This document shows, in pieces, positions 1,043-15,008 of a DNA stretch of 38,845 bases. The translations under genes were made by a program, and so were the position numbers. Source of the DNA: a virus (lineage: Duplodnaviria > Heunggongvirae > Uroviricota > Caudoviricetes). The first letter of the stretch is position 1. Every line of letters begins with the position of its first letter. The notes under the pieces were generated by a model that saw only the letters and a list, made by a program, of their open reading frames with translations, searched no databases and was not told the origin of the DNA. The stretch lies in IMG/VR virus record IMGVR_UViG_3300031712_000052, positions 94,666 to 133,510 of that record; one strand, given 5' to 3'.

Positions 1043-1116
1043 CGGGGTGTAGCTCAGTTGGTAGAGCGCGTGCTTTGGGAGCATGAGGTTCGCAGGTTCG
1101 AGACCTGTCACCCCGA
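1043..1116 (+). tRNA. tRNA-Pro(TGG)
   Basis: CGGGGTG/CACCCCG, loop TTTGGGA. Confidence 0.92.
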
Positions 1117-1118
1117 CT

Positions 1119-1198
1119 GGTGAATACAAGCAGTGATCTGAACGGTTACTTCATGTTGGAATGTAAAAAGCCGTTCTAATTAGTCTCTTGTGTTCGCC
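1119..1198 (+). ncRNA. Y RNA-like unit 1 (short)
   Basis: Terminal stem 1119-1130/1187-1198; GCAGTGA-TCT-GAACGG-TTACTTC ... CCGTTC-TAAT-TAGTCTC. Confidence 0.75.
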
Positions 1199-1205
1199 GC
1201 GTTTT

Positions 1206-1347
1206 TGTGCCAGAAGTAGTGAATTGATCGGATACTTCCATTGCAAAAGGAGGAGATGGAGGTTCAAGTCCTCTCGGTCACTTCGGTGGACGTCGTCTAA
1301 TGGTAGGATGCCTAAAATACCCGATCTAAATAGTCTCTTCTAGCACA
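1206..1347 (+). ncRNA. Y RNA-like unit 2 with permuted tRNA domain (YrlA-like)
   Basis: Shared motif; inner order T-arm (GGAGG-TTCAAGT-CCTCT), loop-closed acceptor CGGTCAC-TTCG-GTGGACG, D-arm TCGTCTAATGGTAGGA. Confidence 0.8.
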
Positions 1348-1355
1348 TTTGATTT

Positions 1356-1446
1356 TGCTTCTCAGTGGCAGTGAATTGATCAGTTACTTCTCAGACCTAT
1401 ACTCTGAACCAAATGGACTGGTCTAAACAATCTCCGCTGAGTGGCA
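1356..1446 (+). ncRNA. Y RNA-like unit 3 (short)
   Basis: Terminal stem 1356-1368/1434-1446; GCAGTGA-ATT-GATCAG-TTACTTC ... CTGGTC-TAAA-CAATCTC. Confidence 0.75.
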
Positions 1447-1453
1447 TTTGATT

Positions 1454-1602
1454 TGCCAAGTGAAAGCAGTGAACTGATCGGATACTTCAATTGGAACCCG
1501 CGAAGGTGGTCCGAATCCATCCGGCCCGACTAGTCGGGCTGTAGCTCAAAGGTAGAGCACGGGTCGTAAGACACCGGTCGAATTAGTCTCTTTCATGTGG
1601 CA
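1454..1602 (+). ncRNA. Y RNA-like unit 4 with permuted tRNA domain (YrlA-like)
   Basis: Shared motif; T-arm GGTGG-TCCGAAT-CCATC, acceptor CGGCCCG/CGGGCTG closed by a loop, D-arm GCTC-AAAGGTA-GAGC. Confidence 0.8.
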
Positions 1603-1609
1603 TTAAGTT

Positions 1610-1714
1610 TCCTCTTTCCCGGTAGTGAGCGTAACGGTTACTTCCACTCAATAGGACATGGACCCCGAAAGGGTCCTGAAAACAGCCGTTGCAAATGGTC
1701 TCCGGGTCTGAGGA
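1610..1714 (+). ncRNA. Y RNA-like unit 5 (short)
   Basis: Terminal stem 1610-1622/1702-1714; GTAGTGA-GCG-TAACGG-TTACTTC ... CCGTTG-CAAA-TGGTCTC. Confidence 0.72.
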
Positions 1715-1748
1715 TTTGATTCTCCTTCGAGCCGAAAGGAAGTGAAAC

Positions 1749-3362
1749 ATGGGTACGATCAACAAGAAGAGAGAGCCAAGGGTGCAGGCTGATAAGCACC
1801 TCAACTTCATGGGTGGTGCAGGATACTTCCTGGATGACCCTGTTCGCCAACTGGAGATGGCAGCCTCCAGTTGCTTCTTCGGAGAACCGCAGTACTACCA
1901 CAGGGACAAGGATGACAAGAGGCCGGTGAGGGAATCTGACCCCCGCTCTCTTTCAGCCTCAGATGTGACTAAATTACGGGAACAGCTGAACGCCATTGAC
2001 CCACAGGAATGGCGTGGACTGACCCCAAAGGCAATGATGGTCAGAGCTATCGATGCTGCTTTGGACTGTGATCCTCTGAGGACCTTAGCCCTTGCTTGCA
2101 AGTTACGGACTCGAGATCATATTAGGACTACTCCACAAGTCATTCTGGTACGAGCAGCTCACCACAAGGCGGTGAAGGGAACGAACTTGATCAGACTGTG
2201 TGGTCAAGATATTCTTCAGCGCCCAGATGAGGTTGCAGTTCAGTTGGCCTACCACTTGGAAACCTATGGAGAGAAGGCTCCTATACCCAACAGCCTGAAG
2301 AGGTTGTGGAGGAAGAAGCTCACTTCTCTTACTGAGTATGAGTTGGCCAAGTACAGACTCGAGGACAAGGAAGTCAAGCTGGTGGACGTAGTGAACCTGG
2401 TGCACCCAAAGAGTGAGGCAGTAGGCAAGTTGGTTCGCGGGGAGCTGAAGAACACAGAGACTTGGGAAGCCATCATCTCTGGCAAAGGTTCTACCAAGGA
2501 GAACTGGGAAGAGGCGTTGGAGCACATGGGACACATGGCCTTGCTCAGGAACATCAGGAACCTTCATGAGAAGGGTGTTCCGTACAAGGCATACATCCAG
2601 AAGCTGGTGGACGGGGCAAAGGGTGGGAAGCAGTTGCCATTCAGGTACTATTCGGCCTTCAAGGCTTTGGGTGAGACTCCTGGTCCAATCCAGGATGCTA
2701 TCGAGACCTGCATGGAGGTAGCACTAGGTGACTTGCCACGGTTCGAGGGGAAGGCGATGTTCTTGTGTGACAACTCAGGTTCTGCTTGGGGCGCAACAAC
2801 CTCTTCTATGGGCACCATGCACATAGCTGAGATTGCAAACCTGACAGCAGTACTTGGGGCCCACCTGGCTGATGAGGGCTACGTAGGTGTTTTCGGTGAT
2901 GACCTTTCTACCATGCCCATTCGAAAGAAGGGTTCCATCTTTGAGCAGCTCAAGCATGTCACTGATGAGGGTAAGAATGTTGGTGGAGGAACAGAGAATG
3001 GCATTTGGTTGTTCTGGGACAAAGCCATTAGGAACAAGGAACACTGGGACAACGTCTTCGTGTTCTCGGACATGCAGGCAGGTCATGGTGGGTTGTATGG
3101 TTCAGATCCTAGGGCATATCTTCCGTACCTGTGGCACTCGGGTCGTCCGAACATAGATGTTGGTAAGTTGATCAATACCTACAGGGCAAGGGTCAATCCC
3201 AACGTCAACGTATACTTGGTCCAGGTAGCTGGATACCAAGACATCATCCTGCCGGAGTTCTACAAGAGGACATACATCTTGAGCGGGTGGAGTGAGGGGT
3301 TGTTCAAGTTCGCTCATCAGATGTCCAACCTGATGGAACAAGTGCAGACACAGAAGAAGTAA
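1749..3362 (+). CDS. rsr: Ro60-related RNA-binding protein (TROVE + vWA)
   Basis: 537 aa; TROVE-like motifs (AKY, LVDVVNLVHPK, MALLRNIRN, QLPFRYYSA), MIDAS DNSGS, C-terminal SGWSE; SD AAGGAAG. Confidence 0.9.
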   Translation: MGTINKKREPRVQADKHLNFMGGAGYFLDDPVRQLEMAASSCFFGEPQYYHRDKDDKRPVRESDPRSLSASDVTKLREQLNAIDPQEWRGLTPKAMMVRAIDAALDCDPLRTLALACKLRTRDHIRTTPQVILVRAAHHKAVKGTNLIRLCGQDILQRPDEVAVQLAYHLETYGEKAPIPNSLKRLWRKKLTSLTEYELAKYRLEDKEVKLVDVVNLVHPKSEAVGKLVRGELKNTETWEAIISGKGSTKENWEEALEHMGHMALLRNIRNLHEKGVPYKAYIQKLVDGAKGGKQLPFRYYSAFKALGETPGPIQDAIETCMEVALGDLPRFEGKAMFLCDNSGSAWGATTSSMGTMHIAEIANLTAVLGAHLADEGYVGVFGDDLSTMPIRKKGSIFEQLKHVTDEGKNVGGGTENGIWLFWDKAIRNKEHWDNVFVFSDMQAGHGGLYGSDPRAYLPYLWHSGRPNIDVGKLINTYRARVNPNVNVYLVQVAGYQDIILPEFYKRTYILSGWSEGLFKFAHQMSNLMEQVQTQKK

Positions 3363-3392: not shown

Positions 3393-3465
3393 GGGCCCGT
3401 AGCTCATTCAGGAGAGCATCCGGTTTGCATCCGGAAGGCGGTCGGGGCAGAGCCGACCGGGTCCA
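3393..3465 (+). tRNA. tRNA-Ala(TGC), atypical T-loop
   Basis: GGGCCCG/CGGGTCC with G3-U70, loop TTTGCAT, T-loop GGCAGAG. Confidence 0.85.
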
Positions 3466-5812: not shown

Positions 5813-5902
5813 GGAATCGTTGGACATGTGGCAAGTCCACCTGCCTTGAAAGCAGGCAAGTCCTAGAAATAGGCTTTGAGCGTTCGACTCGCTCCGATTC
5901 CT
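5813..5902 (+). tRNA. tRNA-Ser(TGA)
   Basis: GGAATCG/CGATTCC, loop CTTGAAA, long variable arm. Confidence 0.88.
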
Positions 5903-6032
5903 CGAAGTAGGGAGTACAGTTGCTGCTTGCTGCCCTCCTATTCATAAGGACCACCACTGGGGTATCGGTGGTGGACTGGTGAAGACCTATTCCAGTCAAC
6001 ACCTAGTCCATATGCGTAGAACAAGCAGCCCC

Positions 6033-10009: not shown

Positions 10010-10080
10010 GCCAGGTGTTGACTTCTGGGAAGTCACTTCATTCGTAATGAAGCAAGGCGGTTCGATTCCGACTCCTGGCT
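10010..10080 (+). tRNA. tRNA-Thr(CGT), slightly degenerate
   Basis: GCCAGGT/TCCTGGC, loop TTCGTAA; mismatches at 7:66 and in T-stem. Confidence 0.75.
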
Positions 10081-10113
10081 CTATCTGGTACACTCTTCAT
10101 ATAGATTACGTGA

Positions 10114-11578: not shown

Positions 11579-11649
11579 GCCAGCAATCCAAGTGGTTGGG
11601 ACGGACGCCTCATAAGCGTTTGGAGTGGGATCATACCCCGCTGCTGGCA
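11579..11649 (+). tRNA. tRNA-Met or Ile2 (CAT), atypical T-loop
   Basis: GCCAGCA/TGCTGGC, loop CTCATAA, T-loop ATCATAC. Confidence 0.75.
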
Positions 11650-14171: not shown

Positions 14172-14245
14172 GCCGGCATACCCCAATTGGAAGAGGGAAT
14201 AGGCCCAAACCCTATTAGTTGAGGATTCGAATTCCTCTGCCGGTA
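14172..14245 (+). tRNA. tRNA-Leu(CAA), short variable loop
   Basis: GCCGGCA/TGCCGGT, loop CCCAAAC (C33). Confidence 0.85.
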
Positions 14246-14259
14246 CAAATGGAGACATC

Positions 14260-14895: not shown

Positions 14896-14969
14896 GGGTC
14901 CGTGGCGCAATGATGGCGCACCAAGAGTAATGACCTTGGAGGTTGTTGGTTTGAGTCCAACCGGACCCA
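14896..14969 (+). tRNA. tRNA of undetermined identity, 9-nt anticodon loop
   Basis: GGGTCCG/CGGACCC, D-stem GCGC/GCGC, CCAAG-AGTAATGAC-CTTGG. Confidence 0.65.
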
Positions 14970-15008
14970 CAGATTTCCGATGGAGGTTAAACTAGCAAGG
15001 AGAGAATC

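What the first reader, a model, noticed from the sequence alone, without database searches (positions are those of the whole stretch)
1119..3362. Phage Ro60 (Rsr) gene preceded by a tandem array of five Y RNA-like genes
Seen: five consecutive units (1119-1198, 1206-1347, 1356-1446, 1454-1602, 1610-1714). Each is closed by a different 10-13 bp terminal stem and carries GYAGTGA-N3-[6 nt]-WTACTTC near its 5' end and [6 nt]-NAAW-YRRTCTC near its 3' end. The 6-nt segments covary: GAACGG/CCGTTC, GATCGG/CCGATC, GATCAG/CTGGTC, GATCGG/CCGGTC, TAACGG/CCGTTG. Inserts range from about 18 to 85 nt. The TROVE+vWA gene starts 35 nt after unit 5. Established: bacterial Rsr binds Y RNAs encoded next to it (e.g. 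Salmonella rsr-yrlBA-rtcBA), and Y RNAs have a Ro-binding stem plus a variable effector domain. Inference: a modular system in which one Ro60 loads five RNAs with a constant handle and exchangeable payloads, inside a phage tRNA operon, possibly as decoys for anti-tRNA defences or adaptors for RNA decay/repair. I do not recognise this motif as the described Yrl Ro-binding consensus, so it may be a new class.
Basis: partly seen in the sequence, partly recalled or inferred. Interest (0 to 1): 0.9.

Follow-up and report, generated by a model that had tools for sequence, protein, structure and literature searches.

The report
Phage Ro60 gene with Y-RNA array
An uncultured phage carries five small folded RNA genes with one shared "handle" just upstream of a Ro60-like RNA-binding protein gene; this is a lineage-specific form of the known bacterial and phage Ro60/Y-RNA particle, not a new kind of system.

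Summary
Five tandem units (1119-1714) each carry AGUGA-N9-WUACUUC, a covarying 6-bp inner stem, a YRRUCUC 3' motif and a unique 10-12 bp closing stem. The 5' motif occurs nowhere else in the 133-kb contig. The ORF at 1749-3362 is a Ro60/Rsr protein: TROVE hit, intact vWA MIDAS, and a model matching all solved Ro60 rings.

A covariance model of the handle hits 161 sites in 159 loci encoding this Ro60 clade. All lie on the gene's strand and nearly all next to it, with strong covariation.

Units 2 and 4 carry permuted tRNA-like domains of the YrlA type. Units 1, 3 and 5 are short.

The "new class" idea is only partly supported. Bacillus phage G and Gordonia phage Neville have the same architecture and the same UUACUUC. 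In AGUGA's place they have GAWGCGG or GAUGCGAAG, the latter containing the CGAA that marks published Y RNAs. Arrays of 4-6 units recur (phage G, a Nitrospiraceae MAG, a 66%-identical relative).

An 88%-identical relative keeps unit 2's handle but has a short payload instead of the tRNA-like one, so payloads are exchangeable.

This scan has noted similar arrays in over 200 other genomes. Rsr binding and function remain inferred.

The parts
1043..1117 (+). tRNA-Pro(UGG). Its 3' end lies 1-2 nt from the first base of unit 1, so tRNA 3' processing would create the 5' end of the array.
   Evidence: ARAGORN; Rfam tRNA 62.5 bits
1119..1198 (+). Y-RNA-like unit 1, short type. 12-bp closing stem, GCAGUGA-UCU-GAACGG-UUACUUC, 18-nt A-rich payload, CCGUUC-UAAU-UAGUCUC.
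   Evidence: Fold -31.1 kcal/mol, z -7.1; model R1 60 bits, E 2.5e-13 (member of the seed)
1206..1347 (+). Y-RNA-like unit 2, long type. Same handle. Payload in order: T-arm (GGAGG-UUCAAGU-CCUCU), acceptor-like hairpin (CGGUCAC-UUCG-GUGGACG), D-arm (CGUC-UAAUGGUAG-GAUG).
   Evidence: Sequence; R1 25.9 bits, E 3e-6 with filters off. No Rfam YrlA match at E<=10. The relative L176 keeps this handle with a short payload.
1356..1446 (+). Y-RNA-like unit 3, short type. Payload is a small hairpin CAGA-CCUAUAC-UCUG plus an A-rich tail. Absent from the 88%-identical relative.
   Evidence: Fold z -4.0; R1 50.6 bits (seed member); alignment A4
1454..1602 (+). Y-RNA-like unit 4, long YrlA type. T-arm, 8-bp acceptor-like hairpin (CGGCCCGA-CUAG-UCGGGCUG), D-arm (UAGCUCAAAGGUAGAGCA).
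   Evidence: Rfam YrlA RF02553, full-length alignment, 34 bits, E 1.4e-5, below the cut-off of 69. R1 22.4 bits with filters off. Compensatory changes in L176.
1610..1714 (+). Y-RNA-like unit 5, short/intermediate type. Payload hairpin GGACCC-CGAAA-GGGUCC.
   Evidence: R1 38.2 bits, E 1e-7, not in the seed; fold z -3.3. The hairpin shows compensatory changes in L176: GUACCU/AGGUAC.
1749..3362 (+). Ro60/Rsr orthologue, 537 aa. TROVE HEAT-repeat ring plus vWA domain with MIDAS residues D341-x-S343-x-S345, T415 and D441.
   Evidence: Pfam TROVE E 5.8e-12; phrog_850 'RNA-binding protein' E 3.8e-39; phmmer to phiLo Ro60 9KOP E 6.7e-22. AF2 model pLDDT 78.7 matches 9KOP, 1YVP, 2NVO and human Ro60. 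MIDAS residues are invariant in alignment A1.

Best explanation
The five units are genes for Y RNAs (Yrl-type), the dedicated RNA partners of the Ro60/Rsr protein encoded just downstream.

Inferred mechanism:
1. The units are transcribed with the phage tRNA operon and rsr.
2. They are released by the cuts that mature the neighbouring tRNAs and by cleavage in the U/A-rich spacers.
3. They are trimmed back to their closing stems.
4. Rsr recognises the constant handle: closing stem, internal loop Y-AGUGA opposite R-UCUC, 6-bp inner stem, and single-stranded WUACUUC.
5. The variable payload projects from the ring. Two payloads are anticodon-less, circularly permuted tRNA mimics; three are short hairpins with A-rich tails.
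6. By analogy with D. radiodurans, Salmonella and Thermus phage phiLo, each payload would gate the Rsr cavity or tether Rsr to a host partner, most likely PNPase or tRNA-binding enzymes. One protein would thus form five different particles during infection.

Shown here: the RNA structures, their conservation and covariation, their linkage to this Ro60 clade, and the Ro60 fold of the protein.

Inferred only: expression, processing, Rsr binding and the downstream function.
For: - The motif is exact in all five units and absent from the rest of the 133-kb contig.
- Model R1 gives 92 hits in 80 bacterial loci and 69 hits in 79 viral loci that encode this Ro60 clade. All 161 are on the gene's strand, and nearly all lie within about 700 nt upstream or just downstream.
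- On 96 hits, 89.5% of cells pair against 43-50% when partners are slid. The covariation score is 0.805 against 0.09-0.14, and 13 of 14 pairs change on both sides.
- Unit 5 was not in the seed and scores 38 bits.
- Unit 4 aligns over the full length of Rfam YrlA.
- The protein has the Ro60 ring and vWA fold with an intact MIDAS.
- Close relatives show compensatory changes: GAUCGG/CCGGUC becomes GAUUGG/CCAAUC, and payload hairpins also compensate. They also show payload replacement.
- A 66%-identical relative keeps the order short-long-short-long-short.
- The loop motif tracks the protein clade: AGUGA with 45-90% identity relatives, GAWGCGG with 37-42% identity relatives. This fits direct recognition.
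- Literature: Rsr binds adjacent Y RNAs in Salmonella, M. smegmatis and D. radiodurans (PMC4201824). Thermus phage phiLo Ro60 binds two upstream Yrl RNAs and host PNPase (PMC12135203).
Against:
- No binding data exist for this clade.
- The canonical GNCGAAN0-1G/CGAA motif is absent.
- The Rfam YrlA cut-off is not reached, and unit 2 has no Rfam match at all.
- No PNPase, RtcB or CCA-adding enzyme gene was found in the contig, which is 71% complete. Any partner must be host-encoded and is unidentified.
- No promoter or terminator delimits the array.
Confidence: 0.72

Rival explanations
1. The units are processing or insulator structures of the phage tRNA operon. They would act as spacer hairpins that guide RNase E, RNase III or RNase P cleavage or protect tRNA precursors, and would have no specific relation to Rsr.
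For: The units sit flush between tRNA-Pro and the next genes inside a 33-tRNA cluster. Their spacers are U/A-rich. In 35 of 60 related viral loci, same-strand tRNAs lie within 2.5 kb.
Against: The handle follows the Ro60 gene, not tRNAs. It is found next to the gene in 25 of 60 viral loci with no tRNA nearby. It is also found beside the gene in the Sorangium, Polyangium and Deinococcus xinjiangensis loci. It occurs nowhere else in this phage's tRNA region.
Confidence: 0.07
2. The array is mainly a cis-acting leader of the rsr mRNA. Rsr would bind its own upstream handles to autoregulate translation or mRNA stability, and the units would not work as free RNAs.
For: Unit 5 ends 34 nt before the start codon, with no terminator or promoter in between. 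Most related units lie directly upstream on the same strand.
Against: In several loci the units lie downstream of the gene: L015, L042, L094, L130 and L136. Payloads include complete tRNA-like domains, which a leader does not need. L176 has a 150-nt insertion between unit 5 and the ribosome-binding site without loss of the array. The two roles are not mutually exclusive.
Confidence: 0.1
3. The units are decayed tRNA genes or repeat debris (tRNA pseudogenes or MITE-like palindromes) with no function of their own.
For: Units 2 and 4 contain T- and D-arm sequences. ARAGORN sometimes calls odd 'tRNAs' at such units in relatives, such as tRNA-Stop in L095 and tRNA-Phe(aaa) in L098.
Against: Conservation with covariation across phyla. 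Compensatory substitutions between close relatives. Invariant loop motifs. Every closing stem differs, so these are not copies of one repeat.
Confidence: 0.03

Closest known systems
Bacterial Rsr with YrlA/YrlB Y RNAs (Salmonella rsr-yrlBA-rtcBA; M. smegmatis YrlA/YrlB; mycobacteriophages). Chen et al. 2014, PMC4201824; Rfam RF02553.
   Same: - Y RNA genes lie beside rsr on the same strand.
- The 5' and 3' ends form a long stem whose internal loop holds a conserved motif.
- At least one RNA has a permuted tRNA-like domain (T-arm, acceptor-like hairpin, D-arm), accompanied by shorter hairpin RNAs.
- Unit 4 aligns over the full length of the Rfam model.
- The M. smegmatis YrlA 5' probe implies UUACCACUUC, close to UUACUUC.
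   Different: - The loop motif is Y-AGUGA instead of the published GNCGAAN0-1G.
- The Rfam score is 34 bits against a cut-off of 69.
- There are five RNAs rather than two.
- No RtcB/RtcA genes are present.
- The array is embedded in a phage tRNA operon.
Thermus phage phiLo Ro60 with Yrl1/Yrl2 (PDB 9KOP, 9L5Y; PMC12135203)
   Same: It is the closest solved protein by sequence (E 6.7e-22) and by fold (TM 0.73 by target). It is a phage Ro60 with Y-RNA-like genes directly upstream and no phage PNPase. In the paper it forms a complex with host PNPase.
   Different: Only about 23% identity over the structural alignment. Two RNAs, recognised in the paper by a CGAA motif in a large bulge. No tRNA-like payloads or tRNA-operon context are described in the passages read.
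Bacillus phage G gp540 (TROVE) and its unannotated upstream RNA array (JN638751, locus L173)
   Same: 39% identical Ro60. Six units with closing stem, loop motif, inner stem, UUACUUC and AUCUC. Four of them are full-length R1 hits, E 7e-7 to 2e-3. A tRNA cluster lies just downstream.
   Different: The loop motif is GAWGCGG rather than GCAGUGA, and the sequence is AT-rich. The units are not annotated in the record. Only one weak, partial Rfam YrlA hit (36 bits) lies about 2 kb upstream.
D. radiodurans Rsr / Yrn1 / PNPase (RYPER) and metazoan Ro60 / Y RNA
   Same: Same protein fold (2NVO and 1YVP hit at E about 1e-10). Same logic of a conserved Ro-binding stem plus a variable effector module. 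These systems are the source of the tether/gate model.
   Different: No sequence-level match by phmmer. The Ro-binding helix sequences differ. PNPase recruitment is untested here.

Membership tests
Ro60/Rsr protein | TROVE (HEAT-repeat ring) domain | tested here: met
   Pfam PF05731 E 5.8e-12, partial match. The AF2 model aligns over its full length with 9KOP, 1YVP, 2NVO and human Ro60.
Ro60/Rsr protein | C-terminal vWA domain with MIDAS (DxSxS...T...D) | tested here: met
   D341-N-S343-G-S345, T415 and D441 are invariant in 25 homologues. A vWA fold is present in the model.
Bacterial Y RNA (Yrl) | Encoded next to rsr on the same strand | tested here: met
   Units at 1119-1714 and gene at 1749-3362, both on +. 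All 161 of 161 homologous hits in related loci are on the gene's strand.
Bacterial Y RNA (Yrl) | 5' and 3' ends pair in a long stem interrupted by a conserved internal loop | tested here: met
   Folds. Both helices covary in 96 sequences.
Bacterial Y RNA (Yrl) | Published Rsr-site motif GNCGAAN0-1G / CGAA | tested here: not met
   The loop reads Y-AGUGA-N3. CGAA occupies this position in Gordonia phage Neville (GAUGCGAAG) and GCGG in phage G. It is read here as a lineage variant.
Bacterial Y RNA (Yrl) | At least one RNA with a tRNA-like module (T-arm and D-arm, YrlA type) | tested here: met
   Unit 4 gives a full-length YrlA alignment that includes the T- and D-arms. Unit 2 is judged by sequence inspection only.
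Bacterial Y RNA (Yrl) | Reaches the Rfam RF02553 gathering score (69 bits) | tested here: not met
   34 bits for unit 4 and nothing for the others. Neville's actinophage YrlA-like RNA also fails at 44 bits.
Bacterial Y RNA (Yrl) | Bound and stabilised by Rsr in vivo | not testable with these tools
   No RNA-protein complex prediction is available, and read data were not available for this window.
RYPER-type particle (Ro60-Y RNA-PNPase) | Y RNA tethers Rsr to PNPase | not tested
   No RNase PH/PNPase gene in the contig. A host enzyme would be needed.

The most novel reading that the evidence does not exclude
The array is a fast-evolving, plug-in RNP platform. One Rsr ring loads five RNAs whose payloads are swapped between close phage relatives, for example tRNA-like against short in unit 2, or presence against absence of unit 3. 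The payloads would redirect host RNA-decay or tRNA-handling enzymes, or soak up host factors that sense phage tRNAs. That would make it a counter-defence or takeover device rather than RNA quality control. The stem-plus-UUAC motif shared across Ro60 clades may also tie these RNAs to other orphan 'stem + motif + variable loop' RNAs, such as the dictyostelid Class I RNAs. With those, UUACUUC shares 3 of the 5 near-invariant positions in register (PMC7919456).
Probability: 0.15. Interest if true: 0.75.

Novelty: new variant of a known kind. Interest (0 to 1): 0.45.

Why it matters
Ro60/Y-RNA particles are conserved from bacteria to humans, yet the roles of their RNA partners are still poorly understood.

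- This locus and its roughly 160 relatives define the handle of a large, mostly unannotated Ro60 clade: closing stem, Y-AGUGA loop, inner stem, UUACUUC, R-UCUC.
- The short units are invisible to the Rfam YrlA model.
- The handle is a sequence variant of the canonical one. The loop motif changes with the protein clade, which gives a natural specificity-swap experiment for how Ro60 reads its RNAs.
- Payloads are exchanged between near-identical phages, so the payload rather than the handle is probably where selection acts.
- Cultured systems with the same architecture exist for testing: Bacillus phage G and Gordonia phage Neville.

Tried and rejected
- Rfam at gathering threshold finds only tRNAs in the window and no YrlA in 20 related loci.
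- Megablast of the region against GenBank phages matched only tRNA fragments.
- NCBIfam has no model for the protein.
- The supplements of Chen 2014 are not held. I could not check whether this clade (Sorangium, phage G) was in their tables.
- The Rfam YrlA family search on the contig found nothing at E<=0.01.
- RtcB, RNase PH/PNPase and CCA-adding enzyme Pfam searches of the contig were all empty.
- The promoter/terminator scan found nothing above the shuffle expectation.
- I first equated the published GNCGAA motif with the inner-stem end plus WUAC, because cmscan aligned CGGAUACUU to CgaAUGCuu. After seeing Neville and phage G, the positional equivalent of the bulge CGAA looks more likely to be AGUGA. 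The register cannot be settled without the published figures.
- I considered and rejected C/D-box or kink-turn readings of AGUGA...UGA, because unit 5 and many relatives lack the second element.
- The anticodon-nuclease decoy idea is rejected as the main reading because the tRNA-like domains have no anticodon loop.
Full report
**Context.** The window is the last 38.8 kb of a 133.5-kb IMG/VR phage contig, estimated 71% complete. It holds 33 tRNA genes, all on the + strand. Interspersed are HNH endonucleases, a sigma factor and a radical-SAM gene.

**Observation.** Reading 900-1800 confirms five consecutive units at 1119-1198, 1206-1347, 1356-1446, 1454-1602 and 1610-1714.
- AGTGA-N9-WTACTTC occurs exactly five times, only here, in the window and in the whole contig.
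- All five 6-nt segment pairs are complementary, three of them with one G-U.
- All five 3' motifs fit NAAW-YRRTCTC.
- Each unit folds with its own closing stem of 10-12 pairs. Four of the five fold well below their shuffles.
- Unit 1 begins 1-2 nt after tRNA-Pro(UGG).
- The spacers are 7-8 nt and U/A-rich.
- The ORF starts 35 nt after unit 5, behind an AGGAAG Shine-Dalgarno sequence.

**The protein.**
- P0001 (537 aa) has a partial Pfam TROVE match and matches phrog_850 'RNA-binding protein'.
- Its closest solved relative is the Ro60 of Thermus phage phiLo (9KOP/9L5Y, E 6.7e-22).
- An AlphaFold2 model built on 25 homologues (pLDDT 78.7) aligns over its full length with every solved Ro60: phiLo, Xenopus 1YVP, D. 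radiodurans Rsr 2NVO and human.
- The vWA MIDAS residues DxSxS, T and D are invariant. It is a Ro60/Rsr orthologue.
- It belongs to a very large clade, with more than 3,900 homologues at E<=1e-10. These include Sorangium/Polyangia, Chloroflexota, Nitrospiraceae, Deinococcus xinjiangensis and many phages.

**The RNAs are a conserved family tied to this protein.**
- I fetched 80 bacterial and 79 viral loci encoding the clade, each with 2.5-kb flanks.
- A simple motif search already found AGTGA...TACTT directly upstream of the gene in most loci with 45-90% protein identity. A stem-aware script showed different, complementary inner and outer stems in each.
- I aligned 31 short units (A2) and built covariance model R1 with only the two helices specified.
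- R1 finds units 1 and 3 (seed members) and unit 5 (not in the seed; 38 bits, E 1e-7). With filters off it also finds the long units 2 and 4.
- Across the loci it gives 92 and 69 hits at E<=0.01. Every hit is on the strand of the Ro60 gene, and nearly all lie within about 700 nt upstream or just downstream.
- On 96 aligned hits, 89.5% of cells pair against 43-50% with slid partners. The covariation score is 0.805 against 0.09-0.14, and 13 of 14 pairs change on both sides.
- That alignment is fitted to the model. The slid controls and the independent script agree with it.

**Two payload types.**
- Unit 4 aligns end to end with Rfam YrlA, including the T-arm, an 8-bp acceptor-like hairpin and the D-arm. 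It scores 34 bits, E 1.4e-5, against a cut-off of 69.
- Unit 2 has the same order by inspection: GGAGG-UUCAAGU-CCUCU, then CGGUCAC-UUCG-GUGGACG, then CGUC-UAAUGGUAG-GAUG. It has no Rfam match.
- This is the permuted tRNA mimic described for YrlA (PMC4201824). The handle occupies the place of the anticodon arm, so there is no anticodon loop.
- Units 1, 3 and 5 are short, comparable to the short hairpin Y RNAs (YrlB, Yrn2) of that paper.

**Is the handle a new class?** Only in a weak sense.
- Gordonia phage Neville has a Ro-like protein 24% identical to P0001. Upstream it has at least four tandem units reading GAUGCG(A/U)AG-N-stem-GUUACUUC.
- One of these carries a tRNA-like domain that Rfam YrlA matches at only 44 bits. 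An actinophage YrlA-like RNA therefore also misses the cut-off.
- Bacillus phage G gp540 is 39% identical. Upstream it has six units reading GA(A/U)GCGG-N-AACAG-UUACUUC...CUGUU-N-AUCUC. Four are full-length R1 hits.
- The 37-42% identity viral clade uses GAWGCGG throughout, and three loci mix AGUGA and AGCGG units.
- So the architecture and UUACUUC are shared. The 5' loop motif is a clade-dependent variant: GCAGUGA, GAWGCGG or GAUGCGAAG.
- The last contains CGAA, the motif used to recognise Y RNAs in the literature (PMC4201824, PMC12135203).
- The M. smegmatis YrlA 5' probe printed in Chen 2014 implies UUACCACUUC in a verified Rsr-bound RNA.
- The change of loop motif with protein clade fits direct recognition, but that is an inference.

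**Array size and modularity.**
- Multi-unit arrays are common: a Nitrospiraceae MAG has six (L016), phage L100 has four, and several phages have three.
- A relative with 66% identical Rsr (L178) has five units in the same short-long-short-long-short order.
- A relative with 88% identical Rsr (L176/L177) has four units. Unit 1 is conserved. Unit 2 keeps a near-identical handle but has a 17-nt payload in place of the tRNA-like domain. Unit 3 is absent.
- Units 4 and 5 in that relative carry compensatory changes: GAUCGG/CCGGUC becomes GAUUGG/CCAAUC, and GGACCC/GGGUCC becomes GUACCU/AGGUAC. A 150-nt insertion lies before the ribosome-binding site.
- This directly supports 'constant handle, exchangeable payload'.

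**Function.**
- Nothing here shows expression or binding.
- The contig has no RtcB, PNPase/RNase PH or CCA-adding enzyme. Partners would be host proteins, as proposed for phiLo Ro60, which binds its Yrl RNAs and host PNPase in vitro (PMC12135203).
- In 35 of 60 related viral loci, same-strand tRNAs lie within 2.5 kb. Co-transcription with tRNA operons and use of the tRNA maturation machinery is therefore a recurrent feature, though not an obligatory one.
- I consider the tether/gate model the most likely mechanism and the cis-leader model a compatible minor role. An anticodon-nuclease decoy role is unlikely.

**Verdict.** This is a real and well-supported phage Ro60/Y-RNA module. It is a lineage-specific variant of a known kind of system. 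The handle consensus and the short units are not covered by Rfam, and I found no description of them in the papers I could read. Earlier notes of this scan report similar arrays in more than 200 other genomes, so this window is one instance of a widespread pattern.

Noticed in passing
L055:2176-2313 (Sorangium cellulosum So ce56); also about 20 other Sorangium loci, L014, L052, L061, L065, L069-L072 and phage L106:1580-1700: The same handle occurs as a closed hairpin in the anticodon-arm position of an otherwise complete tRNA-like RNA (7-bp acceptor stem, D-arm, T-arm, encoded ACCA). The order is GUUCUC, then a stem-loop, then GCAGUGA...UUACUUC. This is a circular permutation of the YrlA layout, with the RNA ends in the acceptor stem. 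Rfam calls it a 135-nt 'tRNA' at 48 bits.
   Followed up: partly
L176:560-1290 and L177 (88% identical Rsr): The array has four units instead of five. Unit 2's tRNA-like payload is replaced by 17 nt and unit 3 is missing. A 150-nt G+C-rich insertion lies between unit 5 and the rsr ribosome-binding site, overlapped by a called 86-aa ORF.
   Followed up: partly
L173:1690-2400 and about 223 (Bacillus phage G, JN638751, about 405.2 and 406.6-407.4 kb): Six unannotated Y-RNA-like units (GAWGCGG...UUACUUC...AUCUC) lie upstream of gp540 (TROVE) in a cultured phage. This would be a usable experimental system.
   Followed up: partly
L175:1479-2340 (Gordonia phage Neville genes 86-90): Five tiny 'hypothetical protein' CDSs (34-66 aa) overlie at least four tandem Y-RNA-like units upstream of the Ro-like protein. 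They are probably mis-annotated RNA genes.
   Followed up: no
window 3393-3465 and 11579-11649: Rfam calls tRNAs here (45.5 and 30.3 bits) that ARAGORN does not list. Conversely, ARAGORN lists 5813-5903, 10010-10081, 14172-14246 and 14896-14970, which Rfam's gathering list lacks. The tRNA count of the cluster is therefore uncertain by a few genes.
   Followed up: no
A Pfam RtcB search of the whole contig found no match at E<=0.01. So short a fragment could escape that search, so this is not decisive.
   Followed up: partly
window 1199-1205, 1348-1355, 1447-1453, 1603-1609, 1715-1721: The spacers between units are near-identical (TTTGATT(T); TTAAGTT once). Many closing stems start UGCC and end GGCA, as in the Nitrospiraceae array L016. 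This may be a shared processing signal.
   Followed up: no
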